Source of the DNA: Candidatus Poribacteria bacterium
GTDB lineage: Bacteria; Poribacteria; WGA-4E; PCPOR2b
Length of the DNA stretch: 64,000 nucleotides
Direction: 5' to 3'
Assembly: GCA_021295755.1 (NCBI GenBank)
Contig: JAGWBT010000003.1
Location: forward strand, 43,129 to 107,128
Numbering within the stretch: position 1 is the first letter of the stretch; each line of letters starts with the position of its first letter. Shown here in pieces: positions 1,621 through 25,608 of this stretch. A program made the position numbers and the translations under genes. A model generated the notes under the pieces. It ran no database searches. It saw nothing but the letters and a program-made list of their open reading frames with translations, and was not told where the DNA came from.

Positions 1621-1650
1621 GTAGGGGCAACCCTTGTGGTTGCCCAATTC
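1621..1650. terminator. Hairpin GGGCAACC-CTTGT-GGTTGCCC between the convergent cysC (+) and radical-SAM (-) genes; possible bidirectional terminator
   Basis: Perfect 8-bp stem with a 5-nt loop. It lies between convergent gene ends, and a related hairpin recurs at 10632-10650. Confidence 0.45.
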
Positions 1651-4387: not shown

Positions 4388-7102
4388 ATGGCAAATCAAT
4401 ACGATTTTCAAGAGGTTGGCAGACTACCAGCGCCGAGCGATAACGTAGCAATCACCACGCGAAGAGTAGATGCGGGCGCAGAAATTAACTACGACGTTCA
4501 TCGTTTTACTGTATCCCATACAATTTTAGAGGGGCACCGGTTCGCAATTCAGGCGATTCCCGAGGGGGAACCACTGTTGTCGTGGGGGTTGCCTTTCGGG
4601 GTGGCAATTACTGACCTGTCTCCTGGCGACTATGCTTGTAACCAGAAGATCCTTGACGCACTTGGGATACGCGATATCGACTTCGCGCTACCCTCCCAGC
4701 CAAACTTCAAAGATCAAATTGCCCCCTACATCCTTGATGAAAACACATTCCAGCCGGGAGCACAAGTTCCTCGATATGATCACGATAGATCTTTCCTCGG
4801 CTATCGGCGAGACGGAGGGCGTGGCGTCGGAACACGAAATTATATTGTTATCATGGGAACCACCTCCCAGACTTCCGGCTATGCGAAGGCGCTTGCAGCC
4901 CGATTCCAAGAGGTTAGTGAAAATTACGAAAACATTGACGGAGTCGTCGCCGTAACGCACACCGAGGGCGGGGAGAGCGCAACACCCAATAACCTGGAGA
5001 TGTTGCTTCGGACACTTGCAGGTTTTACGGTTCATCCCAACATCGGAGCGATCCTAGCTGTTGATTACGGTTCAGAAGTAGTGACGAATCAGATGCTGCA
5101 GCGCTATATGGATGAAAACAACTATCCGTTGGAGGCTGTGCCACACCGTTTTCTGAGCATACACGGCGGCTTTGATACCAGTTTGGAGGCAGGCGAAGCA
5201 ATCATCAAAGAGTGGTTAGGGCCGGTAAACGCAATGCAGCGTACCGAGGAATCTCTCTCCAATGTGAAAATTGCACTTCAATGCGGTGGCTCAGACGCGT
5301 TCTCCGGCGTATCGGGCAACCCACTGGCAGCCCACGTTGCAAAGGAAGTTATCCGTTACGGTGGTGCCGCCAATCTCGCAGAAACCGACGAATTGATCGG
5401 CGCTGAACCGTATGTGCTACAGAACGCCAGAGATTTTGAGACTGCTCGCACGTTTTTAGACACAATCGAACGATTTAAGGAGCGGGCGCGTTGGCACGGC
5501 CATACCGCCGAGGCGAATCCCTCCGGGGGAAACAATTTTCGAGGGTTATACAATATTGTAATCAAATCAATCGGTGCTGCGATGAAACGCGATCCGGAAG
5601 TCTGTCTCGATTACGTCATCGACTATAGTGAACGGATGCGTGCGCCGGGCTACTACTTCATGGACAGCCCCGGAAATGACCTTGAAAGTATCGCAGGGCA
5701 GGTAGCCTCCGGTTCAAATATGATCTTCTTTGTCACCGGCAACGGATCGATTACGAACTTTCCGTTTGTTCCGACAATCAAAATTGTTACCACTACCCCG
5801 CGATACGAAATGTTGAAAAACGACATGGATGTCAACGCCGGTGCTTACCAAGATGGCGTACCGATGCAGGAATTAGGGCAACAGATGCTCGATCTCACCG
5901 TCAATGTTGCTGCTGGGGAGCGGTCTGTCGGGGAGAAGGCAGGGCATTCGCAGGTGTCGATATGGCGGAATTGGAAGCAGACAGGACCTGTCAATCCAGA
6001 AGCAGTGCTTCCAGCCGACGCTCCAACCGGTGAACCGATCCCAATTCAACTCAATATCCTACAATCAGAACACACTTTTAGTGCTATACAGACCGAAAGC
6101 GGTTACCGCAGCGATCAGATCGGGTTGGTCTTGCCGACAAGTCTCTGCTCCGGTCAGATTGCCCAGATGATTGCTGACCGGCTCAACCAAAAAGGGCTCG
6201 GGCGCGAACACGGCATTTCGCGCTATGTTGCGTTGGCGCATACAGAGGGGTGTGGCGTATCGGGCGGAAACTCGGAAGATATCTACAGACGCACACTCAT
6301 CGGGCATCTGATTCACCCAGTGGTTGCCCTCGGGTTACCCTTGGAACATGGCTGTGAAAAAACCCACAACGACTACATCCGCCACGCCCTCACCGAACAG
6401 GATATCCCACTTGAACGATACGGTTGGGCGAGTGTGCAGTTGGATGGCGGCATTGATGCAGTGATTCAAAAAGTCGAGGATTGGTTCAGTCGATCCTTGG
6501 AATCAATGCCCCGACCCGATTACGCCGAGGTCGGTCTGGAACACCTTCGGATCGGATTGACATCGAGCGGTAAAGTGACAGAAACGGTTGCACAGAGTCT
6601 AGCGCATCTCACCCAAACCATCGCCGGTGCAGGTGGAACGGTCGTCGTTCCAGCAAATGTGCCCTTCTTGACTTCACATGCCTATGTTGGGAGCGCGCTT
6701 GGCAATCGTTCTCAAGTGAGAAACACCCTGTCTTACGGTCAACCTATCACTGAACCCGGATTTCATGTCATGGAGACCCCCACCGATCATGTTGTGGAAA
6801 CGTTAACAGGATTGGGTGCGACAGGGGTTGATTTGATGTTCGCGCATGTCGTTGGGCATCCCCTTCAAGCACACCGAATGATTCCGTTGATCCAAGCCAC
6901 GACGGACGAGACCACAGGGTCAATCTATGAAGCGGATTTGGACCTCCTACCCGCTGATGAGAATTGGACGCCGGAGGGCTTTTCGGCACAAATGTTGGAA
7001 ACTATCCTAGAGGTCGCCTCGCGCCGCTACACACCCAAACTTTATGGGAAAGGAAACACAGATTTCCAATTTACGCGCGGACTGCTCGGCATTTCGATGT
7101 GA
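4388..7102 (+). CDS. Altronate/galactarate dehydratase (UxaA/GarD) family protein, unusually long (about 900 aa) with an internally duplicated C-domain
   Basis: N-terminal SAF-like segment (HRFAIQAIPEGEPLLSWGLPFGVA). GTRNYIVIMGTTSQTSGYAKALA...VTHTEGG is echoed later by IGLVLPTSLCSGQIAQMIADRL...LAHTEGCG. An AGGAGG RBS precedes the ATG at 4388; the listed ORF begins at a GTG at 4370. Confidence 0.7.
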   Translation: MANQYDFQEVGRLPAPSDNVAITTRRVDAGAEINYDVHRFTVSHTILEGHRFAIQAIPEGEPLLSWGLPFGVAITDLSPGDYACNQKILDALGIRDIDFALPSQPNFKDQIAPYILDENTFQPGAQVPRYDHDRSFLGYRRDGGRGVGTRNYIVIMGTTSQTSGYAKALAARFQEVSENYENIDGVVAVTHTEGGESATPNNLEMLLRTLAGFTVHPNIGAILAVDYGSEVVTNQMLQRYMDENNYPLEAVPHRFLSIHGGFDTSLEAGEAIIKEWLGPVNAMQRTEESLSNVKIALQCGGSDAFSGVSGNPLAAHVAKEVIRYGGAANLAETDELIGAEPYVLQNARDFETARTFLDTIERFKERARWHGHTAEANPSGGNNFRGLYNIVIKSIGAAMKRDPEVCLDYVIDYSERMRAPGYYFMDSPGNDLESIAGQVASGSNMIFFVTGNGSITNFPFVPTIKIVTTTPRYEMLKNDMDVNAGAYQDGVPMQELGQQMLDLTVNVAAGERSVGEKAGHSQVSIWRNWKQTGPVNPEAVLPADAPTGEPIPIQLNILQSEHTFSAIQTESGYRSDQIGLVLPTSLCSGQIAQMIADRLNQKGLGREHGISRYVALAHTEGCGVSGGNSEDIYRRTLIGHLIHPVVALGLPLEHGCEKTHNDYIRHALTEQDIPLERYGWASVQLDGGIDAVIQKVEDWFSRSLESMPRPDYAEVGLEHLRIGLTSSGKVTETVAQSLAHLTQTIAGAGGTVVVPANVPFLTSHAYVGSALGNRSQVRNTLSYGQPITEPGFHVMETPTDHVVETLTGLGATGVDLMFAHVVGHPLQAHRMIPLIQATTDETTGSIYEADLDLLPADENWTPEGFSAQMLETILEVASRRYTPKLYGKGNTDFQFTRGLLGISM

Positions 7103-7180: not shown

Positions 7181-7281
7181 CTGTAGGTCGATTTTCCAAA
7201 ATAGACCGCCTTTCGTAGTCATCCCGATACATCGGGATGATCATGGCATAGGAAAATGTCGAAATATGAATCTCGACCTAC
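7181..7281. repeat. MITE-like small element with terminal inverted repeats GTAGGTCGA...TCGACCTAC and an inner hairpin ATCCCGAT/ATCGGGAT; a shorter copy lies at 13741-13798
   Basis: The 5' about 30 nt and 3' about 25 nt are near-identical to 13741-13798. The terminal inverted repeats are exact reverse complements. Confidence 0.6.
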
Positions 7282-8624: not shown

Positions 8625-10604
8625 ATGCAGTTTCCCCGCCTTTTTTCTCCAATAAAGGTTGATTCACTAGAGTTAAAAAATCGCGTTGTTTTGGCACCGC
8701 TTGATGTCGGGCTGCATGATCCAGAAGGGCACGTCACTGACCGTTATATAGATTTTCTGGTTGAGCGAGCAAAGGGCGAAACGAGCCTGATTATCACTGA
8801 ATTCACTTCCGTTTGGCCCGAACAACGTGTGATTACCACAGCGGTTTGGGATGATAAATTCGTGCCAGGGCTTACGCGCATGGCAGAAGCCGTTAAGGAC
8901 GCCGGATCCAAGATATTCATGCAGATTGCTGTACTAGGTGGAAAATCTTATATTGAGCCGTTTGCCCCCTCCGCGATCGAAAGCGAACTCTACACCGAGG
9001 TGCCGCGCGAAATGACGGTGGATGATATTAAAAGAGTAATAGAAGCATTCATCTTGGGAGCAACGCGGGCGAAACGAGCCGGTTTCGACGGGGTGGAGTA
9101 TCACTGTGCACATTCATATCTCGGTGGACAATTTATGTCGCCCCACACAAATCAACGGGATGATGACTACGGCGGTGACTTTGAACGGCGTATGCGGTTC
9201 GGCACCGAAATTGTCACAGGGATTAAGCAGGTTTGCGGTGAGGATTTTCCAGTCGGTTTTAAGTTCAGTGCGCATGAACATCTCCATGGCGGCGTGAATG
9301 ACCGATACGACGAAGATGTGAAAGATGACCTTCATCTGCAGATTGCGGAATATATGGAAAATCTCGGTGTCGCCTACCTGCATGTAGCGACTACTTCTGC
9401 GACGATTATGCAGGTCAAAGGATTCGTGGAATGTACCCATCCATCTGTGCCACCGCTATATATCAAGCCCAATACGCTGGTTGATCTGGCAGAGGAGGTT
9501 AAGCAGAATGGCGCTAAAATCCCTGTTATCGCCACGGGCGGAATCACCGACCCCGTACATGCAGAAGAGATTATTTCGCAGGGACGCGCTGATATGGTTG
9601 CCCTTGGTCGCACGCTGATTGCCGATGCGCACTGGGCAAAGAAAGCTCATGAAGGTGAGAATATTGTTCCATGTATTCGGTGTAATTTTTGTCACACCTT
9701 TGTGGTCATGGATCGTGGCGGTGTGCAGTGTACGACAAATCCCATCGTCGGCAGAGAACAACTGATCGCGTTCAACAAAACGGATTTGCCCAAAAAGGTG
9801 GTTGTCGTCGGAGCGGGTCCCGGCGGTCTAGAGGCGGGTTTGCGTGCCAAGGAGATGGGGAATGATGTTATCGTATACGAAAAACGGGATGTCATTGGTG
9901 GAGAGATGATTTCGGCATCGATACCCGACTTCAAATGGGATATTAAACGCCTGCTCCAGTATTATATTACAGAAGTTCAGAAGGTGGGCTTAGAGGTTCG
10001 GACGGGCACGACCGTGACGTTAGATACACTAAGAGCCGACGACCCGGATGTCGTGATCCTTGCAACAGGCGGCGAGGCAATTATTCCAGATATCCCCGGC
10101 ATTGACAGAGACAACGTAATTACCGCAATTGACGCGATAGTCCGCTGGGACGAACTGGAGGTCGGTGAGCGGGTCATGGTGCTTGGTGCAGGGCTTGTCG
10201 GATATGAGGTCGCGTGGTTTGCCGCACAGCAGGGACGCGATGTTGTTCTGGTTTCACGCCGTAGTGAAGATGATGTCATCAAATTGAAAGAACACGGCAC
10301 AAACTTGGCTGTGCTTAGAAAAGGTGTTCGGGAGTCAGGGGCGAGGATACTGGCAAGCCGTGAGTTGAAGCGAGTTGACAAAACGGGGGCTGTGCTGACC
10401 TCGGACGATGGGACAGAGGAATTCCATCCCGTTGAGACCCTGATAATCAGTCGTGGCTATACGCCACGAAGCGGACTCAAGCGGGATATTGAAGCTGCTG
10501 ACTTGCGATGCGAGGTTTACGAAGTAGGAGACTGCGTCGAAGTCCGAAATTTCTTTGATGCAATTAATGAAGGCGCGCATGTTGTCCGGGAGAAACTTGG
10601 ATAA
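8625..10604 (+). CDS. Old-Yellow-Enzyme-type NADH:flavin oxidoreductase fused to an FAD/NAD(P)-binding domain (2,4-dienoyl-CoA reductase-like)
   Basis: OYE N-terminus (LFSPIKVDSLELKNRVVLAPL), a Cys cluster CIRCNFCHTF, and a Rossmann GxGxxG (VVVVGAGPGGLEAG) in the C-terminal half. Confidence 0.8.
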   Translation: MQFPRLFSPIKVDSLELKNRVVLAPLDVGLHDPEGHVTDRYIDFLVERAKGETSLIITEFTSVWPEQRVITTAVWDDKFVPGLTRMAEAVKDAGSKIFMQIAVLGGKSYIEPFAPSAIESELYTEVPREMTVDDIKRVIEAFILGATRAKRAGFDGVEYHCAHSYLGGQFMSPHTNQRDDDYGGDFERRMRFGTEIVTGIKQVCGEDFPVGFKFSAHEHLHGGVNDRYDEDVKDDLHLQIAEYMENLGVAYLHVATTSATIMQVKGFVECTHPSVPPLYIKPNTLVDLAEEVKQNGAKIPVIATGGITDPVHAEEIISQGRADMVALGRTLIADAHWAKKAHEGENIVPCIRCNFCHTFVVMDRGGVQCTTNPIVGREQLIAFNKTDLPKKVVVVGAGPGGLEAGLRAKEMGNDVIVYEKRDVIGGEMISASIPDFKWDIKRLLQYYITEVQKVGLEVRTGTTVTLDTLRADDPDVVILATGGEAIIPDIPGIDRDNVITAIDAIVRWDELEVGERVMVLGAGLVGYEVAWFAAQQGRDVVLVSRRSEDDVIKLKEHGTNLAVLRKGVRESGARILASRELKRVDKTGAVLTSDDGTEEFHPVETLIISRGYTPRSGLKRDIEAADLRCEVYEVGDCVEVRNFFDAINEGAHVVREKLG

Positions 10605-10631
10605 TTGATATTGCACTAAAGTGTGTGTAGA

Positions 10632-10743
10632 GGCAAACCTTGTGGTTGCCCTCATTCCTTTCGCTCCAGAGGAGCGATATGTCTATAGAAGGGTAATGGG
10701 ACCAATCCACGCGCTCCAGAGGAGCGCAATGTGTAAGCAAAGT
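10632..10743. repeat. REP-like palindromic repeat block: hairpin GGCAAACC-TTGT-GGTTGCC plus two tandem units CGCTCC-AGA-GGAGCG followed by ATGTCTATAGA or ATGTGTAAG
   Basis: A paralogous block lies at 13917-14003, where the stems differ by compensatory changes. Confidence 0.6.
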
Positions 10744-10809
10744 ATGTCCAACACCAATACCCCAAATTCCCAACAGGACGACAAATATCTAATATATGGA
10801 GGAATAATA

Positions 10810-12255
10810 ATGTATTTGAGATTGGAACAACCCAAAATTAGACGAAAGATTGTCGTCTGGTTTCTGGCAGTTGTTTTGGGAACCGGGGGCATTGTCTCAG
10901 AAAGCGTCGCAGAACACGATTGGACAGACCAGATTGCTGCTTTCAAACCGATGGTTGTGAATGTGGAGACCTCTTCAGAGGTTGTGTTTGAAACGGAGTC
11001 GAAAGGGACTAGTTTCGCCACCGGTTTCATCGTTGATGCTGAGCAAGGGATTATCGTGACCAATCGGCATGTAACGGGCAGCAGTCCGTCTTATGTCAAG
11101 ATCAATTTCTACGATGGTAGCTTTACAGAAGCACAGGTGCTTTACTACGATCCCACGCACGACTTCGGCTTTTATCAGATTGATCCGAAGGAAGTGTTGT
11201 TTGAACTCCAAGCTGTGCAACTCGGTTCATGGCGGGATCTTGCGCTCGGGGACGAGCTGCTTCTAATCGGCAATAATGAGAAAGAGGAGTATTCCATCAA
11301 GCGCGGCAGGGTTGCCAATCTCAATGTGAACAAAGGCGATCGGCATTCCAGCTACATCCATACAACGTTTGATCGCACAGGTGGATCAAGCGGCAGTCCG
11401 GTGTGGAACACGAAAGGCGAGGTCATCGCCATCCATGCGCGTGGAACCGATACCTCTAGCTTTGAATTACCAGTCAATTATGTGATTGATACCCTCAAAC
11501 AGATTCAAAGCGGAGGGACAATCCAACGTGGAGAGATTGGGGTGGATTTAGAGTTGATCTCGATTGGGGAGGCAATTAAGCATTTTGGATTACCTGAAGC
11601 TTCCCGTGCAGAGATAGGCCCCTCTGAGGCGGGAACGCCGAAAGTGATACAGATTGAATCGATTATTCCCAAAACGACAGGTGAGGCAGGCCTTCTTGCT
11701 TCCGATATCATCTATAGGATAAATGGAAAACTAATTCGTGATGACCTGTATACTTTTGATGCAATCCTCAACGAAAACGCCGGGGAAAGTGTGATCTTGG
11801 ATATCTATCGCAACGGAAAGGCTGTGACAGTTGAAGTCATGGTAGAAGATATGGAGTTGAAGAAAGTTCGCCGATTCGTCCGATTCGCCGGATCTGTCTT
11901 CCACGACATAACACCTCAGCTTAGGCATCTGCTTTACTTTGAGGCTGATGGGGTCTACCTCCCACATGCTGATGCGGGAAGTAGCTTTTCCCGGGTTGGC
12001 ATCCGCGAACGCAGCGGCAACTCAAAAGTGGTCATTCTGGAGATTAACGGACGGGCGATTAGGAATCTTGACGATTTTATCGCTGCCTGCGCAGAGATTT
12101 CGGGAGGACAGCATACCTATGTGGTCATCCGCGACTTCAATCGCTTTGACAGTTCACCGACCCCTAGGAGTTTAACGATTAACCTGAAATTTGGTACCCT
12201 TGACGTATTTGAGTGGAATGAGAACAATCTCGATTGGGAAAAAGTTGAGGAATGA
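10810..12255 (+). CDS. Trypsin-like serine protease with C-terminal PDZ-like domain(s) (DegP/HtrA-like), secreted
   Basis: Catalytic-triad contexts TNRHVTG, HDFGFYQID and GGSSGSPV, plus a signal-like N-terminus MYLRLEQPKIRRKIVVWFLAVVLG. The start is moved to the ATG at 10810, which has a GGAGG RBS; the longer listed ORF covers the repeat block. Confidence 0.75.
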   Translation: MYLRLEQPKIRRKIVVWFLAVVLGTGGIVSESVAEHDWTDQIAAFKPMVVNVETSSEVVFETESKGTSFATGFIVDAEQGIIVTNRHVTGSSPSYVKINFYDGSFTEAQVLYYDPTHDFGFYQIDPKEVLFELQAVQLGSWRDLALGDELLLIGNNEKEEYSIKRGRVANLNVNKGDRHSSYIHTTFDRTGGSSGSPVWNTKGEVIAIHARGTDTSSFELPVNYVIDTLKQIQSGGTIQRGEIGVDLELISIGEAIKHFGLPEASRAEIGPSEAGTPKVIQIESIIPKTTGEAGLLASDIIYRINGKLIRDDLYTFDAILNENAGESVILDIYRNGKAVTVEVMVEDMELKKVRRFVRFAGSVFHDITPQLRHLLYFEADGVYLPHADAGSSFSRVGIRERSGNSKVVILEINGRAIRNLDDFIAACAEISGGQHTYVVIRDFNRFDSSPTPRSLTINLKFGTLDVFEWNENNLDWEKVEE

Positions 12256-12295
12256 CACACTGAACCTAATGCGTATTTTGATGGAAGGAAATGAG

Positions 12296-13711
12296 ATGCG
12301 TTATAAACCCGTTTCTGCAATGTTTGCAGTGACTTGTTTGATGTTGTGCGCGCTCGGTCCAGCGATTGGGGATATTGAAATTGATATCTTCCTGCTGAAC
12401 ACTGAGTTCTTTTTCGATAATAAGAAACCGCATGGAGAAGTTGTCGGCAAATCGGTGCCTGTGCCAACCGCAGAGCAATATGAGGCAAAAGCCAAAACCA
12501 TCGCTGAACTTATTGACACCCACAAGGCAAATATCGTCGGGCTCATTGAAGTTGAAAACCGAGCTGTCCTCGAAAAAGTCAAATATTACCTCGCAAGTCC
12601 CGACGATTGGGAAATCGCTTTCGATGAAGGCAGGGATACCTATACCGGTCAAGATGTCGCCATTCTCACGAAATTTCGGATTGTGCGGGGGAGTGCGACA
12701 AACTTTCCGGAGGAGCGTGAGATCTACTTTGTGAATGACCAAGAGTACGATGTGAACCCTTCAAAGATTCTGGGTGTCGAATTAAAGATTGACAACCAAT
12801 CGTTCTATGTCCTAATCACTCACCTCATTTCTCGACGTAACCCAAGGGACGCCAAGCGGCTTGCACAAGCCACCGTCCTGCGGCGGCAGGCCGTCAAAGC
12901 GATGATGGAAGATAAGAATGTCATTGTCATGGGAGACATGAACGACACACCGGCAACGCCGGTAATTAACCGGCTCCGTGGGTTCGATGACATTTGGGGT
13001 GATTTCTTGCAGACTGCCAATGCAGTTGAAGCTAATAATCGGTATACGTACATCCACGAAGGTCAGAAAAATCTGATCGATTACATCCTCATCAGTCCGA
13101 GCCTGCGAAATGAGTTTCGCAATGTTGAGAAGACAAAGCGGTGTGAAATTATTGATGTCAGCGAGCTATCGGATCATCGGGCAATCCTTGCTCGATTGCG
13201 GATTATCCATCCTGTTGTTGTTCTTGAAACGGACAAAGGGACCATCGAAATCGAACTTTACCCAGATGTTGCCCCGAAAACTGTCGCCAACTTTATCAAG
13301 CTAATTGAAATGGACTTTTACGACGGTCTCACCTTTCACCGGTATGTGGAGAGCTTTGTGATTCAGGGCGGAGATCCGGAGGGTAGTGGTAGTGGTGGTC
13401 CAGGATGGACAATTCCGGGCGAGTTTCAAAATTCGAAACTCCGTGCGAAGATGCCTCGACACAGAAAAGGGGTGGTGGCTATGGCACGAGCGAACAAGCC
13501 GGACTCCGCAGGAAGTCAATTCTACATCTGCTTGGACGCAAAGCCCTCTCGCTATTTTAGCCTTAACGGTCAGTATACCACTTTTGGGAAAGTCATTGCA
13601 GGCATTGATGTAGTCGATCAACTCCGCAAAGGAGATGTGATGAACACAGTGCAGATAAAGGGCAAGAACGAAGAATCAGCCGCACCAACTGGGGAACAGA
13701 CATCTCAATAA
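12296..13711 (+). CDS. Fusion protein: endonuclease/exonuclease/phosphatase (EEP) domain plus a cyclophilin-type peptidyl-prolyl isomerase
   Basis: The C-terminal half has cyclophilin signatures (FHRYVESFVIQGGDP, GVVAMARANKPDSAGSQFYI). The N-terminal half is EEP-like with a signal peptide. The start is set at the ATG after a GGAAGGA RBS to avoid overlap with the protease. Confidence 0.7.
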   Translation: MRYKPVSAMFAVTCLMLCALGPAIGDIEIDIFLLNTEFFFDNKKPHGEVVGKSVPVPTAEQYEAKAKTIAELIDTHKANIVGLIEVENRAVLEKVKYYLASPDDWEIAFDEGRDTYTGQDVAILTKFRIVRGSATNFPEEREIYFVNDQEYDVNPSKILGVELKIDNQSFYVLITHLISRRNPRDAKRLAQATVLRRQAVKAMMEDKNVIVMGDMNDTPATPVINRLRGFDDIWGDFLQTANAVEANNRYTYIHEGQKNLIDYILISPSLRNEFRNVEKTKRCEIIDVSELSDHRAILARLRIIHPVVVLETDKGTIEIELYPDVAPKTVANFIKLIEMDFYDGLTFHRYVESFVIQGGDPEGSGSGGPGWTIPGEFQNSKLRAKMPRHRKGVVAMARANKPDSAGSQFYICLDAKPSRYFSLNGQYTTFGKVIAGIDVVDQLRKGDVMNTVQIKGKNEESAAPTGEQTSQ

Positions 13712-13740
13712 AGGATTGGCATAACCCATGTTGCTCGGTT

Positions 13741-13840
13741 CTGTAGGTCGATTTTCCAAAATCGACGTGCTGTGTCGAGATATGAATCTTGACCTACAGG
13801 TTGCAACCAATCCCCGTAGGTCGGGCATCTTGCCCGACCT
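13741..13840. repeat. Short copy of the MITE-like element (CTGTAGGTCGA...TCAAGACCTACAG) followed by a related hairpin AGGTCGGGC-ATCTT-GCCCGACCT
   Basis: Sequence identity of its ends with 7181-7281. The adjacent perfect 9-bp hairpin shares the GTAGGTCG core. Confidence 0.55.
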
Positions 13841-13916
13841 CCTTATCGGGCGGTGCGACATGTGTTAAAGTAGAAATGGAGGAAAAACCAGAGATATTAA
13901 TCTTTGCTTACTTTCG

Positions 13917-14003
13917 TTTTTCGCCCCAGAGGGGCGACATGTCTATAGGGTAGCGGTATACCTAATCTTCGCGCTCCAGAGGAGTGCTATGTGTATAGTA
14001 GAG
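13917..14003. repeat. Second REP-like block: CGCCCC-AGA-GGGGCG then ACATGTCTATAGGG, and CGCTCC-AGA-GGAGTG then CTATGTGTATAG
   Basis: Paralogous to 10660-10743. The stem change CGCTCC/GGAGCG to CGCCCC/GGGGCG preserves base pairing. Confidence 0.6.
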
Positions 14004-14061
14004 TTTTCATTGTGATAACAAGGCAGATAATTTGCCAACAACATCAAGGAGGTAACAAAAC

Positions 14062-14706
14062 ATGTCAGAATCGTTGAAACAACGTCTACACCGGGGCGAG
14101 AGCCTTAAAGTCGCAGGATCCTCTATAGATGCATCGAGGAGCGAACTCGAAGCCCTTCTCAGTCAAGATTCCTACGATATAGTCTCTATCGACAGCCAGC
14201 ACGCAGCGTTCAATGAAGACAGATTGGTTTCATTTTGCGCCATGGCAGCCGAGTTGAGCGTGCCTACCCAATTTCGCATCAAAAACACGCGGCAGGCGTA
14301 CTTAATCGGCAACTACCTAGACCTCGGACCATTTTCCATTGTGGTGCCACAGGTTGAGGACGAGGAAACCGTCGATGAGGCGATAAACGCCTTCTACTAT
14401 CCACCAATCGGCAAAAGGAGTTGGGGTCCCAGTTCGGGGTACGGCTTCAAACCGGATATGGAACGACTGGAGTACGCCGAATGGTGGAACAACAACGGCA
14501 TCCTTGCTATCCAACTAGAGTCGGTCAATGCCGTAACCAATGCACGACACCTCGGCAAACCGGGTATTGACATGTTCCTCTTTGGCGCAAATGACATGAA
14601 CTTTAGTTTGGAACAATACCCAGACCATCCGTTCAAGACGGTTGAGGATATGATTCAGCACGTTGTGGAACAAATGGAAGGCACACACGTCAAGGTCAAT
14701 GCTTGA
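14062..14706 (+). CDS. HpcH/HpaI-family aldolase (2-keto-3-deoxy sugar-acid aldolase-like)
   Basis: Family-typical IVSIDSQHAAFNEDRL context, 214 aa, and a GGAGG RBS. Confidence 0.65.
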   Translation: MSESLKQRLHRGESLKVAGSSIDASRSELEALLSQDSYDIVSIDSQHAAFNEDRLVSFCAMAAELSVPTQFRIKNTRQAYLIGNYLDLGPFSIVVPQVEDEETVDEAINAFYYPPIGKRSWGPSSGYGFKPDMERLEYAEWWNNNGILAIQLESVNAVTNARHLGKPGIDMFLFGANDMNFSLEQYPDHPFKTVEDMIQHVVEQMEGTHVKVNA

Positions 14707-14880: not shown

Positions 14881-14989
14881 GACCTTTTAACTAGTCCTAC
14901 ACCACCCGATCCAATTGTAATGCGCGATATTTTTGATTTTTTCCCCGTTCAATTCAACCACGGATCAATGAACGAATGAACCTTTGACC

Positions 14990-15022
14990 GTTTACGCATT
15001 ACGTTTCATGTTTTACGCTTCA
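14990..15022. repeat. TTTACGC / ACGTTT direct-repeat cluster (CCGTTTACGCATTACGTTTCATGTTTTACGCTTCA)
   Basis: The same ACGTTTTACGCATCACGTTT-like motif recurs at 25704-25730, 61427-61455 and 45764-45790, and on the reverse strand near 42137-42160. Confidence 0.5.
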
Positions 15023-15066: not shown

Positions 15067-15129
15067 TCACGGATATCCGTGAATCCCTTTATTTTATGCC
15101 TTGATCTCTCTTTTGTGTCATGCTATAAT
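15067..15129 (+). promoter_or_regulatory. Candidate promoter of the bc-complex operon: perfect 16-bp palindrome TCACGGATATCCGTGA, then TTGATC, a 17-bp spacer and an extended -10 TGcTATAAT
   Basis: The palindrome centre lies about 50 bp upstream of the -10 start. The identical palindrome, at the same spacing from a TGcTATcAT -10, is found at 24718-24781. Confidence 0.5.
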
Positions 15130-15726: not shown

Positions 15727-15733
15727 TAAAGTA

Positions 15734-15758
15734 GTAGGCATACTCTGTATGCCGTAAC
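15734..15758. repeat. 3'-UTR hairpin element GTAGGCATAC-TCT-GTATGCCGTAAC immediately after the Rieske stop codon
   Basis: 7-bp stem and 3-nt loop. Near-identical elements follow the stop codons at 20806 and 22620. Confidence 0.55.
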
Positions 15759-16756: not shown

Positions 16757-17623
16757 ATGGAGCATTTTCTTTTATTGGTTACGAAGCCGGATAACGTTCC
16801 AATTGTTGCAATTGTGTTGTTGTTACCTTTCTTCACTTGGCTTGCATTCAGCCAAGGGCGCAGAAATGACCGAGCCGGCACACCCGCAGAAGCAGCACTT
16901 AACGATAAAGTCTACTGCTGGCCCTACCTTTGCCGCAACGAGTTTCTCTGTGCGATTATTGTAATGCTCGTGCTGGGGATATGGTCTATTACCATTGATG
17001 CCCCCCTCGAAGAGCCCAGCGATCCAACAAAAACCCCGAATCCATCTAAGGCCCCATGGTATTTCCTCGCGCTACAGGAAATGCTAGTTTACTTTGATCC
17101 GTGGATTGCAGGTGTTGTCTTGCCAGGATTGATTATCGCCGGTTTAGTCGCCATTCCCTTTATAGATATCAATCCCAAAGGAAAAGGCTACTATACCCTA
17201 AAAGAGCGTCCGTTTGCACTTATTATCTTCTGTTTCGGCTTTTTCGTGTTATGGATCGTGTTGATGGTCGTCGGCACCTTCCTGAGGGGACCCGGTTGGA
17301 ACTTTTTCGCCCCATGGAAAGAGTGGGATCCGCACAAAATTGTGCCGTTAACCAACGTCAACCTCTCTTACCTATTTGGCATCCGGAACGAACAGCCCGC
17401 CGGTATCTTCGGGATGTGTGTTGTCGTCGGCTATTTTGCTCTGGGTCCCATCTATTATTATCTAAAAAGAGGAACGAGTAAGTTCCTTCAAGAGTTGGGA
17501 TTAGTGCGATACATCGTGGTTTCATTCCTGTTTTTAACGATGATGTCTTTGCCTATCAAGATGATTCTTCGGTGGACATTGAATATCAAGTATATTTGGG
17601 TTTCTCCGTGGTTCAATATCTAG
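16757..17623 (+). CDS. Cytochrome b C-terminal half (subunit-IV/PetD-like), extended
   Basis: Multi-TM protein with PEWY-region-like PWYFLALQEMLVYF. It sits immediately downstream of the b6-like gene. Confidence 0.75.
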   Translation: MEHFLLLVTKPDNVPIVAIVLLLPFFTWLAFSQGRRNDRAGTPAEAALNDKVYCWPYLCRNEFLCAIIVMLVLGIWSITIDAPLEEPSDPTKTPNPSKAPWYFLALQEMLVYFDPWIAGVVLPGLIIAGLVAIPFIDINPKGKGYYTLKERPFALIIFCFGFFVLWIVLMVVGTFLRGPGWNFFAPWKEWDPHKIVPLTNVNLSYLFGIRNEQPAGIFGMCVVVGYFALGPIYYYLKRGTSKFLQELGLVRYIVVSFLFLTMMSLPIKMILRWTLNIKYIWVSPWFNI

Positions 17624-17680
17624 GGCGTATTGGACAATGTGTAATTCGTCCATTCAAATAGTAAGGAGTCAATAGGAATC

Positions 17681-20600: not shown

Positions 20601-20806
20601 ACCTTGCATTAGCGAAGGGTCGTCTCAAAGCGGACTGGGTCATTGAATGGCTCAAGGATCCACAATCCTTCCAACCGGGGACTGCGATGCCGCAAGCTTG
20701 GCCCAAAATCGGCGGCGCATATCAACCTGTTGATGGGTTTGCAGTCGATGATGCCGAAGAGCAGATCCGGCTGGTGAGAGATTACCTCAACTCGCTGGGC
20801 GAGTAA
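17681..20806 (+). CDS. Membrane-anchored octaheme c-type cytochrome of the bc complex, with a long coiled-coil-like linker
   Basis: Eight CxxCH motifs: CATCH, CTPCH, CRRCH, CHGCH, CLSCH, CFGCH, CTGCH and CISCH. It has an N-terminal TM helix and a GTG start with an AGGAG RBS. Confidence 0.8.
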   Translation: MRSNKEIQVEEKSYAALFFILSGLLGFVTLWGFYNETITRRPWKEIQRQFYEYEYQKTKIDLEKAKQDLPEIEAPQEIDPKQESSLKGAIAKLQIKLDEALQERKFDQSESDAINYKYQHALHHGEQEKAEKWKKKLDEFESRIEGPLTDAVLEAERNLADAYKDLAELYDTNGHVEAALSEYLLVRKYNAADSTASAKIDELQAKIEDAKADKAKYAEVDRLEEKLHSVGGIKRTFIGTLAESPFTKTRTVVQYYIEDFDYTADRCATCHFASDKAGYDKFAKEQFEEIEGDGESLLTLQLKHPYINTDSETVLIDEEDAEEGSYELSEDGKLTFTDPDVFADLVEIAYETGYDPVLRTHPHRDVLLGKHPGERFGCTPCHGGQGQGLTQIAAHALDHKKEYWLTPVLGLDEHTGKASEELHGYMESNCRRCHDGVMMLDAPNPETGQLQDYSPVLSKGMALFEDIGCHGCHAVEGYSVLADLDQVGPSLAKVGSKVNGVDWLEGWIKQPTAYLPETKMPDFFPVEKLTQAVYLKNGNKHYGVVTKTDTGIILQKDDGTKYPYPDTAVERVVDEVKSIAAYLAQMKDPAIDQADTSYSTASRAIAAGEQVVKSVGCLSCHAVDGLGSDFAPKLDNVGSKLTPQFLRQWISDPKSYDPDTAMPSLRLTKTEVNNAVAYLMSLQETAISPIAGNENPHAAVDPMEGEKLVRTYGCFGCHNIPGFENESKVGADLGEFGAKTVEELDFGDTTDIEHSWHGWTIGKVTNPRRYQTRRIVSRMPVFSEHTIGEEEARALAVLLKSFQPVKYPVSYLHQPSEKTWQVDAGRRLAKKYNCTGCHEIEGKGGDFVNVVAANEDLDLLNAKRFAPPTLQAQGAKVYPEWLFEFLKSPTPIRYGLEVRMPTFGLADEEATALVKYFSALDDEVFPYETIALQPASRGELRVGKQIFDALQCISCHPEQGEVIPPGSDKTGRPDLALAKGRLKADWVIEWLKDPQSFQPGTAMPQAWPKIGGAYQPVDGFAVDDAEEQIRLVRDYLNSLGE

Positions 20807-20810
20807 TGTG

Positions 20811-20837
20811 GTCAGCATACTCCGTATGCCGTGACCT
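20811..20837. repeat. 3'-UTR hairpin element GGTCAGCATAC-TCC-GTATGCCGTGACC
   Basis: Same family as 15734-15758 and 22618-22643. It lies 5 nt after the stop codon. Confidence 0.55.
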
Positions 20838-20875: not shown

Positions 20876-20908
20876 AGAAACCGAGCTTTTTCTTGAAAAC
20901 TCGGTTTC
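20876..20908 (+). terminator. Hairpin AGAAACCGAGCTTTT-TCTTG-AAAACTCGGTTTC
   Basis: A 12 to 13-bp near-perfect stem followed by T-rich sequence. An almost identical hairpin lies at 25609-25640. Confidence 0.5.
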
Positions 20909-20982
20909 TTTCCACGATTTCTTAACATAAGCGATGACGTGTATTCAATCCTTCCTATCGTGGTACTAAAAGGGGGCTACAA

Positions 20983-22620
20983 ATGCTTCAAGCCAATCCC
21001 TCCGTATCTTCCGAAGCCTCAACAGCAGGAAATAGTGGCCAACGTATCCTCATCGGCATCGTTATCGCCATCATCGTTGGGCTTATTGTCGGTGGTTGGA
21101 TACCAAACTTCGCCGCAAAGACAACCCTGCTCGGCGACATATTCTTGAATGCCCTAAAAATGATTGTCGTCCCGCTGGTCATGTTTTCAATGATTGTTGG
21201 CATTACCGGCTTAGGGGACATTCGCAACCTCGGCCCAATAGGTGGACGCACTGTCCTCTATTACATGGCGACCACTGGGATTTCCGTGCTCATCGGTATC
21301 ATTTTGGTCAACATCACCCAACCGGGGAAAGGAATTTCTCGCGGCGCAGATTATCCAGAGTATACCTACACCGTTGGTGGCGAAAACAATCGCACTGTTA
21401 CGTTCACCAACGGCACCTGGGAGAACACACGTTTTGACGACAGGTATGTCCTGATTTTATCCGATCAAGGGGTGCAAGGTGCGATTCAGTCAATGACTGA
21501 AAACTCCGCTACAGTAAAGTTGTGGGAACCCACCCAAGGCGGTGAGGAGGTCTATATTGAGGCGGAGGATGGCACACGCCTGCCTTTTCGGCGGGTCGGA
21601 GGGCAGCTCGTTTCCGATGAACCGGAGCTGCAACCCGGAGGAAAAGGCGTAAAAATTGACCTACCTATCGCCGGGGCAGTTCGCGGCAAAGAAGAGCGAA
21701 ACATCGGCAACATCTTGTCGGAAGTCCTGATTGGAAACGAAGAAACCGGAAAAGAGGGCTTGATTCCGCGAAACCTGTTCAACGCGATGGTACGGACTGA
21801 CATCCTCCCGTTGATCTTTTTCTCGTTGCTGATCGGCAGCGCATTTTCCATCTTGGGTGAACGTGGACAGAATGCCATTAATTTTATTTCGGTGCTGAAC
21901 GATGGTGTCATGCGTATTGTGCACTGGATCATGATTTTCGCGCCAATCGGTATCTTCGGATTAGTTGCAGGTCGTATTGGACGCGCCGGTGGATTCACCA
22001 AATTTCTGCCTGAACTGCTTGCAGTTGGGAAATATAGTTTCACAGTCCTATTTGGACTCGCTATACACGCCGTTGTTGTGTTGCCGCTAATCCTCCTGCT
22101 AATTGGTAGACGGAATCCGTTGACCTACGTAAAGGGGATGGGAGCAGCGCTGCTAAACGCTTTCTCCACAGCATCAAGCTCAGCGACACTGCCGTTGACA
22201 ATGGAAGGCACTGAGAAGAAAAATGGCATATCCAATCGGACTTCAAGTTTCGTCTTACCACTTGGTGCAACAATTAATATGGACGGCACTGCCCTCTACG
22301 AAGCCGTTGCTGCGATGTTTATCGCACAGGTCTACGGAATAACCCTCGGTCCTGTGGAGCAGATTGTTATCTTTCTGACCGCGACGATTGCCGCTATCGG
22401 GGCTGCAGGTATCCCTGAGGCGGGGCTTGTGACAATGGTGATTGTCTTAAAAGCCGTTGGATTGCCGATTGAAGGTATTGGATTGATCCTGACTATCGAT
22501 TGGTTCCTTGACCGATGCCGGACAACCATCAACGTCTGGGGCGATAGTGTGGGTGCTGGTGTAATTGAGACGCTTGAATCGAGGACTGCTCCAGAACAGG
22601 AGGCAGACTCCTTAAGGTAG
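20983..22620 (+). CDS. Dicarboxylate/amino acid:cation symporter (DAACS, GltP-like) with an insertion of about 140 aa in a hydrophilic loop
   Basis: DAACS TM-core signatures (MIVVPLVMFSMIVGITGLGD; ATINMDGTALYEAVAAMFIAQ) plus a long insert from GADYPEYTYTV to LIGNEE. Confidence 0.75.
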   Translation: MLQANPSVSSEASTAGNSGQRILIGIVIAIIVGLIVGGWIPNFAAKTTLLGDIFLNALKMIVVPLVMFSMIVGITGLGDIRNLGPIGGRTVLYYMATTGISVLIGIILVNITQPGKGISRGADYPEYTYTVGGENNRTVTFTNGTWENTRFDDRYVLILSDQGVQGAIQSMTENSATVKLWEPTQGGEEVYIEAEDGTRLPFRRVGGQLVSDEPELQPGGKGVKIDLPIAGAVRGKEERNIGNILSEVLIGNEETGKEGLIPRNLFNAMVRTDILPLIFFSLLIGSAFSILGERGQNAINFISVLNDGVMRIVHWIMIFAPIGIFGLVAGRIGRAGGFTKFLPELLAVGKYSFTVLFGLAIHAVVVLPLILLLIGRRNPLTYVKGMGAALLNAFSTASSSATLPLTMEGTEKKNGISNRTSSFVLPLGATINMDGTALYEAVAAMFIAQVYGITLGPVEQIVIFLTATIAAIGAAGIPEAGLVTMVIVLKAVGLPIEGIGLILTIDWFLDRCRTTINVWGDSVGAGVIETLESRTAPEQEADSLR

Positions 22621-22643
22621 TAGGCAGACTCCGTATGCCGTAA
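22618..22643. repeat. 3'-UTR hairpin element GTAGTAGGCAGAC-TCC-GTATGCCGTAAC overlapping the symporter stop codon
   Basis: Same family as 15734 and 20811. There is one stem mismatch. Confidence 0.5.
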
Positions 22644-25595: not shown

Positions 25596-25608
25596 CACTG
25601 CCGACGCA

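What the first reader, a model, noticed from the sequence alone, without database searches (positions are those of the whole stretch)
10660..10743. REP-like hairpin repeats with compensatory stem substitutions in the 5' regions of two genes
Two tandem units of a 6-bp stem with an AGA loop followed by (A/C)(T/A)ATGT(C/G)TAT(A/G)G occur upstream of the protease gene (10660-10743) and again upstream of the aldolase gene (13917-14003). Between the loci the first stem changes from CGCTCC/GGAGCG to CGCCCC/GGGGCG, a compensatory double change. This argues for selection on the secondary structure, either in RNA (a regulatory 5' UTR element) or in DNA (a REP-like protein-binding site).
Basis: seen in the sequence. 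Interest (0 to 1): 0.5.

Follow-up and report, generated by a model that had tools for sequence, protein, structure and literature searches.

The report
REP-like hairpin doublets, Y1-transposase associated
The two pairs of small hairpins are real, but they are copies of a dispersed, REP-like repeat that in related Poribacteria genomes flanks an IS200-like tyrosine (Y1) transposase gene, not gene-specific regulators of the protease and aldolase genes.

Summary
Four same-strand units sit at 10661-10688, 10711-10738, 13921-13948 and 13971-13998. Each is a 5-7 bp stem with an AGA loop, one base, then ATGTNTA(TAG). Both pairs have exactly 50-nt phasing, and the T-A to C-G stem swap is real.

The motif is not specific to these genes. 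A one-genome-per-species scan hit its 120-locus limit, mostly in Candidatus Poribacteria, also in Acidobacteriota, Flavobacterium and Acidimicrobiia. In 661 kb of Poribacteria DNA, 86% of 237 units lie outside ORFs. They occur in both orientations, including convergent spacers, usually as 49-51-nt direct doublets.

At seven distinct gene loci a ~157-aa Y1 (HUH) transposase is flanked by direct units upstream and inverted units downstream, which is the REP/RAYT layout. A relative with 91%-identical HtrA and the same gene order lacks the doublet, and six other HtrA orthologues lack it too.

Stem covariation is strong: all four Watson-Crick pair types occur, beyond every shuffle.

The best reading is a REP-type element recognised as a single-stranded DNA hairpin. 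It differs from canonical REPs: no GTAG tag, a conserved 3' decamer, direct rather than inverted doublets. Its transposase carries the signature of TnpAY1 subclass 1.2, which was reported to lack REPs. Mobilisation is inferred, and no transposase lies in the window.

The parts
10657..10738 (+). Doublet 1: TTTC + unit A + 22-nt semi-conserved linker + unit B. It matches the ~80-nt Poribacteria doublet consensus TTTCGCTCCAGAGGAGCGAtATGTCTATAGAA..cgat....C.AAtccCcGCGCTCCAGAGGAGCGCaATGTGtAta.
   Evidence: In the consensus of 38 unique doublets, conservation starts 4 nt before hairpin A and ends about 10 nt after hairpin B.
10661..10688 (+). Unit 1A: 5' arm 10661-10667, loop AGA 10668-10670, 3' arm 10671-10677, tail ATGTCTATAG 10679-10688.
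   Evidence: ssDNA hairpin at -7.1 kcal/mol, z = -3.8.
10711..10738 (+). Unit 1B: 5' arm 10711-10717, loop 10718-10720, 3' arm 10721-10727, tail ATGTGTAAGC 10729-10738 (the TATAG part has degenerated).
   Evidence: The orthologous copy in L056 is identical.
10739..10797 (+). About 59 nt that, together with doublet 1, is present in the window and in L056 but absent from the orthologous spacer of L122. Whether it belongs to the repeat family is uncertain: no other copy was found.
   Evidence: BLAST finds it only in the window and L056.
13917..13998 (+). Doublet 2: unit A with the GCCCC stem + linker + unit B with the GCTCC stem and a G.T wobble.
   Evidence: L122 carries a diverged doublet with different stems at the orthologous position.
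13921..13948 (+). Unit 2A: arms 13921-13927 and 13931-13937, loop AGA, tail ATGTCTATAG 13939-13948.
   Evidence: -8.0 kcal/mol.
13971..13998 (+). Unit 2B: arms 13971-13977 and 13981-13987 (one G.T), loop AGA, tail ATGTGTATAG 13989-13998.
   Evidence: Folds at -4.9 kcal/mol on the + strand; on the - strand the stem is weakened by a C.A mismatch.

Best explanation
The two doublets are copies of a REP-type dispersed repeat family of Candidatus Poribacteria (the lineage identified by the window's closest sequence matches; also found in Acidobacteriota, Flavobacterium, Acidimicrobiia and others).

**Anatomy.** The unit is a short GC-rich hairpin (5 conserved pairs, up to 7, with a 3-nt loop) followed after one base by the decamer ATGTNTATAG. 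In Poribacteria the dispersed form is an ~80-nt element made of two such units on the same strand, 50 +/- 1 nt apart.

**Shown.** The family is physically associated with a ~157-aa IS200-like Y1 (HUH) transposase. That gene sits at a fixed chromosomal locus, flanked upstream by direct units and downstream by inverted units.

**Inferred mechanism.** This follows from established IS608/ISDra2 and E. coli TnpA(REP) biochemistry. The Y1 enzyme recognises the hairpin in single-stranded DNA and cuts and rejoins next to it, probably in or beside the conserved 3' decamer, and so copies or moves the doublets in trans. Compensatory stem changes are what recognition of stem shape rather than stem sequence predicts. 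Different Y1 paralogues are flanked by different stem variants (GCTCC or GCCCC).

**In the window.** The copies are insertions in intergenic spacers. Any effect on HtrA or aldolase expression would be incidental.
For: **1. Dispersal.**
My own arithmetic gives about 35 chance hits for the whole collection.
- There are 5-8 separate 8-kb blocks per complete Poribacteria chromosome even in the truncated list.
- The TAG that follows the pattern is about 90% conserved although it was not searched for.

**2. Extragenic position, any context.** In 77 Poribacteria loci (661 kb), 204 of 237 units lie outside ORFs of at least 100 aa, which cover 81% of the DNA. Counts by spacer type: tandem spacers 76 co-oriented and 43 anti-oriented, divergent 20, convergent 19.

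**3. Doublet phase.** 72 same-strand neighbour pairs are 49-51 nt apart. Conservation has sharp edges.

**4. Transposase association.** Seven distinct genes have direct units upstream and inverted units downstream, with the stem type matching on both sides of the gene: L035, L007, L021, L102, P0045, P0020 and P0047.

**5. Protein identity.**
- Pfam Y1_Tnp scores 100.6 bits and NCBIfam transpos_IS200 scores 79.7 against a cut-off of 55.
- The closest solved structures are the ISDra2 and IS608 TnpA proteins, with HUH and Tyr aligned.

**6. Fixed locus.** P0047 (24 contigs read, of 29 indexed blocks) and P0020 (9 contigs) always have the same neighbouring genes.

**7. Presence/absence.**
- L122 has the same synteny and 91%-identical HtrA, but only 73 bp between the oxidoreductase and HtrA genes and no doublet.
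- The number of units upstream of the P0020 gene varies between assemblies: 15, 7 and 9.

**8. Covariation.** On 143 distinct units chosen by the tail alone, 83.3% of cells are paired against 73.9 +/- 0.6 in shuffles (0/500). There are 112 double-change cells against 38.9, and the covariation score is 0.321 against 0.06-0.14 for slid structures.

**9. No phage copies.** The unit pattern has no match in the viral contig collection.
Against: - No Y1 gene lies in the 64-kb window. I could not check the rest of the source genome.
- Mobilisation by the Y1 protein is inferred and not shown. Only one filled/empty site comparison was obtained, and there the extra DNA is about 142 bp, longer than the 80-nt doublet.
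- Several insertions are conserved at orthologous sites across species: the window and L056, and probably the L003/L044/L055/L119 group, judged only from similar 5' flanks. This means slow turnover, or possibly a host function.
- In tandem-gene spacers the orientation is skewed 76:43 towards the gene direction. I cannot say whether that reflects replication-strand targeting or selection at the transcript level.
- Local GC skew shows no correlation with unit orientation.
- G.T (10) and C.A (7) mismatches do not single out one strand.
Confidence: 0.8

Rival explanations
1. It is a cis-regulatory RNA structure in the 5' UTRs of the protease and aldolase mRNAs. Two hairpins each sequester a GGAG Shine-Dalgarno-like arm next to an AUG and control translation or stability.
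For: - Both window copies are co-oriented with, and 62-72 nt upstream of, a start codon.
- The 3' arm reads GGAG and is followed 5 nt later by ATG.
- The region folds more stably as RNA than shuffles do, z about -2.2 to -2.5.
- Orientation in tandem spacers is skewed 76:43 towards the gene direction.
Against: - No Rfam match even at E <= 10.
- Absent upstream of HtrA in L122 (91% identity, same synteny), and no doublet upstream in six further orthologues; L126 has one variant unit about 260 bp upstream.
- 43 anti-oriented copies and 19 copies in convergent spacers.
- The downstream genes are unrelated across loci.
- The variable base of ATGTNTA is a second codon position, and the mini-ORFs differ in length and sequence.
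- The same units flank a transposase gene in inverted orientation.
Confidence: 0.05
2. The doublets are inert relics: solo ends left behind by excision or deletion of an IS200-like element. On this view they are not independently mobilised non-autonomous elements.
For: - The doublet is identical in design to one flank of the Y1 gene.
- Poribacteria mostly carry single arms rather than the full inverted composite seen in Acidobacteriota and Acidimicrobiia.
- Some insertions are old and shared between species.
Against: - The Y1 genes examined sit at one fixed locus per lineage and are not scattered. There is therefore no evident population of full-length elements to leave relics at hundreds of sites.
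- Doublets far outnumber genes: 237 units in 661 kb of motif-selected Poribacteria DNA, of which only 2 of the 77 loci contain a Y1 gene.
- Stems remain paired, with compensatory changes.
Confidence: 0.1
3. It is an operator or promoter module: a palindromic binding site for a dimeric transcription factor next to a TATAG '-10-like' box, duplicated five helical turns apart.
For: - A palindrome next to an AT-rich box.
- A 50-bp phase, which is about 5 helical turns.
- Location upstream of genes in the window.
Against: - Both half-sites change together through all four Watson-Crick pair types, which an unchanged protein would not tolerate.
- No sigma-70-like site falls on the units, while HtrA orthologue loci show plain TTGACA-N17-TAAAAT-like promoters.
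- Units occur in convergent spacers and in both orientations.
- The T at the last position of a -10 hexamer is not conserved.
Confidence: 0.03
4. It is a degenerate CRISPR-like mini-array of two ~30-nt repeats and one ~20-nt spacer.
For: Repeat-spacer-repeat appearance with a hairpin in the repeat.
Against: - The period is 50 nt with a 20-22-nt 'spacer' that is itself partly conserved between loci.
- Copies are scattered in many intergenic spacers.
- The arrays that do exist adjoin a Y1 transposase gene; the gene calls and Pfam labels listed around them show no Cas-effector family except a TnpB-type gene in L138.
Confidence: 0.01

Closest known systems
REP / RAYT (TnpA-REP) systems, REPtrons and REPINs (Nunvar 2010; Bertels & Rainey 2011; Ton-Hoang 2012; Quentin 2018, PMC6006769)
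   Same: - Short hairpin repeats, mostly extragenic, with many copies per genome.
- A low-copy Y1/HUH transposase gene at a fixed locus, flanked by the repeats in inverted orientation.
- Different paralogues with their own repeat variants.
- Long persistence at orthologous sites.
   Different: - No GT[AG]G tag at the 5' foot. Instead there is a conserved decamer, ATGTNTATAG, 3' of the hairpin.
- The stem is only 5-7 bp with a 3-nt loop.
- The dispersed form in Poribacteria is a same-strand doublet with a 50-nt phase, not an inverted REPIN.
- The protein has Y---Q--HH rather than Y---NP, and scores below the NCBIfam REP_Tyr_transpos cut-off (35.9 against 80).
IS200/IS605 insertion sequences (IS608, ISDra2) and their gene-less derivatives
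   Same: - The transposase is closest to these by sequence (NCBIfam transpos_IS200 above its cut-off; best PDB matches are ISDra2 and IS608 TnpA).
- The signals are small hairpins on one strand.
- The right edge of the doublet lies about 10 nt 3' of hairpin B, comparable to the IS608 right-end cleavage distance. That comparison rests on my own knowledge of IS608.
   Different: - The gene does not lie between the two hairpins of a doublet.
- The gene's flanks are inverted repeats of each other.
- The gene is single-locus and not multi-copy.
- No tnpB partner in the loci examined; one strain has an unrelated TnpB-like gene nearby (L138).
TnpAY1 subclass 1.2 (Quentin et al. [quoted passage not shown] 2017 (PMC5581495)
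   Same: - Motifs DH[IV]H, WQ and Y-I-x-N-Q-x-x-H-H.
- Length about 150 aa.
- Low copy number and non-IS behaviour.
- Bertels' Group 3 had abundant flanking 16-mers without duplication.
   Different: [quoted passage not shown] Here the genes are flanked by a well-defined hairpin repeat and occur in Poribacteria and Acidimicrobiia.
- Equivalence with Bertels' Group 3 was not tested.
BIMEs (bacterial interspersed mosaic elements) of enterobacteria
   Same: Regularly spaced REP units form composite arrays. Arrays of 7-15 units with a 51-nt period occur next to the P0020 Y1 gene.
   Different: BIME units alternate in orientation, whereas these are all direct.

Membership tests
REP/RAYT (REPtron) system | Short (20-40 nt) hairpin-forming repeat | tested here: met
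   A 7-bp (5 conserved) stem plus 3-nt loop. Units fold as ssDNA at -4.9 to -8.6 kcal/mol. Covariation exceeds all 500 shuffles and all slid controls.
REP/RAYT (REPtron) system | Many dispersed, predominantly extragenic copies per genome | tested here: met
86% of 237 units lie outside ORFs that cover 81% of the DNA. The window has 4 units in 64 kb. An exact per-genome count was not obtainable.
REP/RAYT (REPtron) system | A Y1/HUH transposase gene flanked by the repeats in inverted orientation | tested here: met
   Seven distinct genes in relatives. None lies in the window, and the rest of the source genome could not be examined.
REP/RAYT (REPtron) system | Conserved GT[AG]G tetranucleotide at the 5' foot of the hairpin | tested here: not met
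   The 5' foot is TTTC, TTTA or CCGC. The conserved extra element is the 3' decamer ATGTNTATAG.
REP/RAYT (REPtron) system | Class-2 RAYT protein signature (Y---NP; NCBIfam REP_Tyr_transpos) | tested here: not met
   REP_Tyr_transpos scores 35.9 bits against a cut-off of 80. The Y motif is YIENQEKHH.
REP/RAYT (REPtron) system | Transposase gene low-copy and at a fixed chromosomal locus (not IS-like) | tested here: met
   P0047 (24 contigs read, of 29 indexed blocks) and P0020 (9 contigs) always have the same neighbours. Some large contigs hold 2-3 divergent paralogues.
REP/RAYT (REPtron) system | Dispersed unit is a REPIN (two REPs in inverted orientation) | tested here: not met
   In Poribacteria there are 72 direct neighbour pairs at 49-51 nt against 6 inverted neighbours within 400 nt. 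By contrast, inverted composites [A B..B' A'] are common in Acidobacteriota and Acidimicrobiia loci.
IS200/IS605 insertion sequence | Y1 transposase with HUH motif and catalytic Tyr | tested here: met
   Pfam Y1_Tnp 100.6 bits and NCBIfam transpos_IS200 79.7 against a cut-off of 55. HUH and Y align with ISDra2 TnpA.
IS200/IS605 insertion sequence | Gene lies between different left and right subterminal hairpins on the same strand, with no inverted ends | tested here: not met
   The flanks are inverted copies of the same two-unit module.
IS200/IS605 insertion sequence | Several near-identical full-length copies at different sites | tested here: not met
   Every contig holding P0047 or P0020 shows the same neighbourhood. 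Whole genomes were not scanned.
TnpAY1 subclass 1.2 (Quentin 2018) | Motifs DH[IV]H, WQ, Y---Q--HH; about 148 aa | tested here: met
   The proteins have DHIH/DHTH, WQ and YIENQEKHH / YIENQVEHH / YIQNQVEHH, at 155-160 aa, compared with Table 1 of PMC6006769. This is by motif inspection only; no phylogeny with reference members was made.
TnpAY1 subclass 1.2 (Quentin 2018) | Subclass-specific conserved C-terminal domain (~30 aa) | not tested
   No reference sequences of the subclass were available for comparison.
Cis-regulatory RNA element | Conserved upstream of orthologous genes, in a fixed orientation | tested here: not met
   None of the 7 HtrA orthologue loci has the doublet upstream; L126 has one variant unit about 260 bp upstream. 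Copies occur in both orientations and in convergent spacers. No Rfam hit.
CRISPR array | 28-37-nt repeats, unique 30-40-nt spacers, adjacent cas genes | tested here: not met
   The period is 50 nt and the linker is 20-22 nt and partly conserved. Copies are dispersed. The only arrays adjoin a Y1 gene.

The most novel reading that the evidence does not exclude
The hairpin + ATGTNTATAG doublet is the cognate DNA signal of the IS200-like Y1 lineage described as subclass 1.2, perhaps the same as Bertels' 'RAYT-like IS200 Group 3'. That lineage was reported to have no REPs.

If so, this is a second, separately organised domesticated Y1-repeat system, conserved in sequence across several phyla. Its repeats keep the IS200/IS605 logic: two hairpins on one strand, with the right edge about 10 nt past the second hairpin. 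Its gene, however, behaves like a RAYT. That would make it an intermediate between IS200/IS605 elements and REP/RAYT systems.
Probability: 0.5. Interest if true: 0.6.

Novelty: new variant of a known kind. Interest (0 to 1): 0.45.

Why it matters
For annotating this window, the doublets should be labelled as repeat elements and not as regulators of HtrA or the aldolase.

More broadly, the data link a Y1 transposase lineage that the literature lists as REP-less to a sharply defined repeat conserved across phyla. That repeat has a hairpin, a 3' decamer and a 50-nt phase. This yields a directly testable protein-ssDNA recognition pair, and a possible evolutionary bridge between IS200/IS605 insertion sequences and domesticated REP/RAYT systems.

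It also shows that Poribacteria genomes carry at least two coexisting Y1/REP systems: this one and canonical GTAG-tagged REPs with class-2 RAYTs. Together these fill a noticeable share of their intergenic DNA.

Tried and rejected
- **Rfam.** Scans of the window at gathering threshold, and of 10550-14150 at E <= 10, gave nothing relevant.
- **Leader peptides.** The mini-ORFs starting at the unit's ATG (MSIEG*, MSIG*, MCIVEFSL*) have no conserved length or sequence, and the variable base is a second codon position. Rejected.
- **Promoter or terminator.** No sigma-70-like site on the units and no T-run after the hairpin. Orthologous loci use ordinary TTGACA/TAAAAT promoters.
- **Replication-strand bias.** There is no relation between unit orientation and local GC skew in 8-kb blocks, and orientations along complete chromosomes are mixed. 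Inconclusive.
- **Strand of the structure from wobble types.** G.T 10 against C.A 7 is not informative.
- **Y1 gene in the window.** tblastn found none.
- **Phage origin.** No match in viral contigs.
- **Literature.** A search for the sequence GCTCCAGAGGAGC returned only an unrelated paper. No paper in the searched library links Poribacteria to REPs.
- **The ~59-nt tail after doublet 1.** It has no other copies, so its relation to the element remains open.
- **Candidate unit at 17611.** A 9-bp stem with a 7-nt loop followed by ATGTGTAA. It does not fit the family (wrong loop and stem) and is treated as chance.

Full report
**1. The observation**

Each is a 7-bp stem with an AGA loop, one base, then ATGT[C/G]TA followed by TAG; in 1B that ending is AGC.

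| Unit | Sequence | Coordinates |
|---|---|---|
| 1A | TCGCTCC-AGA-GGAGCGA-T-ATGTCTATAG | 10661-10688 |
| 1B | GCGCTCC-AGA-GGAGCGC-A-ATGTGTAAGC | 10711-10738 |
| 2A | TCGCCCC-AGA-GGGGCGA-C-ATGTCTATAG | 13921-13948 |
| 2B | GCGCTCC-AGA-GGAGTGC-T-ATGTGTATAG | 13971-13998 |

- The repeat finder groups them as one family with start-to-start spacings of 50, 3210 and 50.
- Pattern searches give 4 exact copies. With mismatches allowed they give more matches than any of 100 shuffles.
- The T-A to C-G swap between 1A and 2A is real. A second compensatory difference, T-A against G-C at the outermost pair, separates the A units from the B units.
- Each unit folds into the hairpin as single-stranded DNA, at -4.9 to -8.6 kcal/mol.
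- The neighbouring genes are ordinary chromosomal genes: MR/MLE enolase-type, an FMN/FAD oxidoreductase, an HtrA-like protease, an EEP-cyclophilin fusion, an HpcH/HpaI aldolase, and Rieske/cytochrome b genes.
- No Rfam family matches.

**2. Census outside the window**

I scanned one genome for each of about 186,000 species with GCYCCAGAGGRGYNNNATGTNTA. The scan stopped at its 120-locus limit. My own arithmetic gives about 35 chance matches for the whole collection.

- Most loci are from Candidatus Poribacteria MAGs, many of them complete chromosomes with 5-8 separate 8-kb blocks each.
- Others are from Pyrinomonadaceae, Blastocatellia and Chloracidobacterium (Acidobacteriota), three Flavobacterium isolates, and Acidimicrobiia, Verrucomicrobiota and other MAGs.
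- The TAG after the searched pattern is about 90% conserved although it was not imposed. These are therefore true relatives and not chance hits.
- L056 (OZ220744.1) is the orthologue of window locus 1. That places the window in Poribacteria.
- A looser scan (any perfect 5-bp stem, any 3-nt loop, N3, ATGT) finds 300 units in the fetched DNA against 10 in shuffles. Stems found are GCTCC, GCCCC, ACTCC, GCGCC, GTCCC, GATCC and GCACC. Loops found are AGA, AGC, GGA and GTA.
- The decamer ATGTNTATAG alone occurs 218 times, against about 8 expected.

**3. Covariation**

I chose 143 distinct units by the decamer alone, with no stem requirement (alignment A5), and counted the 7-pair structure on them.

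| Measure | Observed | Control |
|---|---|---|
| Cells forming a standard pair | 83.3% | 73.9 +/- 0.6% in shuffles (0/500 reach it) |
| Cells changed on both sides | 112 | 38.9 in shuffles |
| Covariation score | 0.321 | 0.152 in shuffles; 0.06-0.14 with slid partners |

- The five inner pairs carry the signal. The two outer pairs are often unpaired.
- The copies are related by descent, so these are not independent events. Even so, the structure is clearly maintained.
- The mismatch types (G.T 10, C.A 7) do not single out a strand.

**4. Genomic behaviour**

The figures below come from 77 Poribacteria loci totalling 661 kb.

- 204 of 237 units lie outside ORFs of at least 100 aa, which cover 81% of the DNA.
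- In spacers between tandem genes, 76 units point with the genes and 43 against. A further 20 lie in divergent spacers and 19 in convergent spacers.
- Same-strand neighbours peak sharply at 49-51 nt (72 pairs). Inverted neighbours are rare (6).
- The consensus of 38 unique doublets is TTTC-GCTCCAGAGGAGC-GAtATGTCTATAGAA..cgat....C.AAtccCcGC-GCTCCAGAGGAGC-GCaATGTGtAta. Conservation starts 4 nt before hairpin A and stops about 10 nt after hairpin B. This is a discrete ~80-nt element.
- In Acidobacteriota and Acidimicrobiia the common form is instead an inverted composite, [A B ... B' A'], of about 190 bp. Poribacteria mostly carry one arm of it.

**5. The associated gene**

In L035 the units flank a 155-157-aa ORF: direct A+B doublets lie upstream, tandemly amplified with a ~115-nt period, and an inverted B'+A' doublet lies downstream.

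- The protein matches Pfam Y1_Tnp at 100.6 bits and NCBIfam transpos_IS200 at 79.7 bits (cut-off 55). It falls below the REP_Tyr_transpos cut-off, at 35.9 against 80.
- Its closest solved relatives are the ISDra2 and IS608 TnpA proteins, with the HUH and Tyr motifs aligned.
- tblastn finds homologues in L007 (Poribacteria, 73%), L021 (Acidimicrobiia, 61%) and L102 (59%). L102 is a 2.4-kb contig binned as Akkermansia, and that binning is doubtful. No homologue lies in the window.
- All three homologues show the same layout of direct units upstream and inverted units downstream.
- Of 2725 homologues in the protein collection, the best 120 are Poribacteria proteins named 'IS200/IS605 family transposase'.
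- I fetched the contexts of three of them. P0047 was read on 24 contigs (of 29 indexed blocks) and P0020 on 9. Each always has the same neighbours, so each sits at a fixed locus and does not behave like a hopping IS.
- All three are flanked by 2-15 direct units upstream (49-51-nt phase, number varying between assemblies) and by inverted units downstream.
- The stem type matches on both sides of each gene and differs between paralogues: GCCCC for P0045 and P0020, GCTCC for P0047 and L035.

**6. Test of the regulatory reading**

- L122 has the same gene order as the window and 91%-identical HtrA. Its oxidoreductase-HtrA spacer is only 73 bp and lacks the doublet. About 142 bp of the window (10656-10797) is extra relative to it.
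- Six further HtrA orthologues (74-86% identity) have no doublet upstream. One has a single variant unit (GCCCA/GTA/TGGGC + ATGTTTATAG) 260 bp away. Several show plain TTGACA-N17-TAAAAT-like promoters.
- At the aldolase locus, L122 has a doublet in the same position but with different, partly degenerate stems.
- No promoter- or terminator-like site lies on the units.
- The units are therefore not conserved regulators of these genes.

**7. Mechanism**

*Shown:*
- a hairpin family with maintained pairing;
- extragenic dispersal;
- a 50-nt doublet phase;
- consistent inverted flanking of a fixed-locus Y1 gene;
- presence/absence and copy-number polymorphism.

*Inferred from what is established for IS608/ISDra2 TnpA and E. 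coli TnpA(REP):*
- The Y1 dimer binds the hairpins in single-stranded DNA.
- It cleaves and ligates next to them, probably at the conserved decamer.
- It thereby spreads the doublets in trans.

The same-strand A...B arrangement, with the right edge about 10 nt beyond hairpin B, resembles a gene-less IS200/IS605 left-end/right-end pair. The gene locus itself looks like a REPtron.

**8. Comparison with what is known**

- The protein motifs (DHIH, WQ, YIENQEKHH) match TnpAY1 subclass 1.2 of Quentin et al. 2018. That subclass is described as close to IS200 but non-IS, low-copy, 'REP: no', and found mainly in Cyanobacteria and Bacteroidetes.
- Bertels et al. 2017 noted a 'RAYT-like IS200 Group 3' with no duplicates and abundant flanking 16-mers. 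It may be the same lineage, but I did not test that.
- The canonical REP features are absent: there is no GT[AG]G foot, no Y---NP protein signature, and no inverted REPIN form in Poribacteria.
- I found no paper describing this repeat.
- I therefore file it as a new variant of the REP/Y1-transposase kind, and not as a member of the canonical RAYT family.

**9. Caveats**

- The source genome outside the window could not be examined.
- Gene calls in my context statistics are crude: longest ORFs of at least 100 aa.
- Only one empty-site comparison was obtained, and there the extra DNA is longer than the doublet.
- The 76:43 orientation skew is unexplained.

Noticed in passing
window 15727-15758, 20804-20835, 22613-22644 (+): A second repeat family, TAAnGTAGTAGGCATACTCyGTATGCCGTAAC. 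It has a GTAG tag at the 5' foot of a 7-bp hairpin and sits right at or after stop codons. It looks like a canonical GTAG-type REP.
   Followed up: no
window 1621-1645 and 10627-10651 (+); window 13811-13845 (+): More GTAG-tagged hairpins: GTAGGGGCAACCCTTGTGGTTGCCC and CCGTAGGTCGGGCATCTTGCCCGACCT. One lies immediately upstream of doublet 1 and is conserved at the orthologous site in L122. Both types recur in other Poribacteria loci.
   Followed up: partly
L022 5212-5685 (+) with flanks 5140-5175 and 5700-5735; L019 1050-1703 (-): Poribacteria relatives also encode class-2 RAYT-type Y1 proteins (DHVH...WQ...YCYVNP; NHVH...WQ...YIRKNP). The L022 gene is flanked by GGTAG + hairpin REPs in inverted orientation. 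Canonical REP/RAYT systems therefore coexist with the family studied here.
   Followed up: partly
window 13741-13800 (+), partial copy 7181-7206: A ~60-bp palindromic element, CTGTAGGTCGATTTTCCAAAATCGAC...GACCTACAG. It is dispersed in at least 15 Poribacteria loci and absent from the orthologous spacer of L122.
   Followed up: partly
L001 (ENA metagenome scaffold) versus window 13741-14706: A 2.2-kb metagenome contig encodes the identical aldolase protein. Its DNA matches the window at all but one base from 13741 through the upstream region and at least the start of the gene; the middle of the gene was not compared. The 3' end of the gene has only synonymous differences, and both flanks are unrelated. 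This is a rearrangement or recombination breakpoint at the edge of the palindromic element, or an assembly chimera.
   Followed up: partly
window 14984-15006, 25705-25727, 45761-45783, 61428-61450 (+); 15067-15114 and 24718-24765 (+): Two further intergenic repeat families: TTTACGTTTTACGCATCACGTTT (4 copies) and the palindrome-containing TCACGGATATCCGTGA... (2 copies). The first palindrome copy (15067) lies upstream of the Rieske/cytochrome b genes and the second upstream of the gene at 24846. These are possible operators or another repeat type.
   Followed up: no
window 20876-20921 and 25608-25653 (+): Paired long hairpins AGAAACCGAG(c/t)TTTTTCTT(g/c)AAAACTCGGTTTCT after genes. They look like terminators.
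   Followed up: no
L130-L135, 630-1480 (+): Upstream of the P0020 Y1 gene the units form arrays of 7 to 15 copies with a 50-51-nt period. The length differs between assemblies of otherwise identical neighbourhoods. Gene callers turn these arrays into spurious 30-95-aa ORFs.
   Followed up: partly
L138 1-710 (-): In one strain a TnpB-type gene (OrfB_IS605 / Cas12f1-like_TNB) replaces the glycosyltransferase gene that normally lies next to the P0047 Y1 locus.
   Followed up: no
L021 5400-7600 and L102 1200-2080: In the Acidimicrobiia-type loci the Y1 gene and its composite repeats lie among repeated 3' ends of a gene ending ...LQHRAFRGEL. That ending resembles a type I restriction specificity (HsdS) subunit; this rests on my recollection and was not tested.
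   Followed up: no
window 17611-17650 (+): A 9-bp hairpin with a 7-nt loop followed by A-ATGTGTAA, at the end of the cytochrome b C-terminal-domain (petD-like) ORF (16757-17623). It resembles the tail of unit 1B but not the family's stem or loop, and is probably chance.
   Followed up: no
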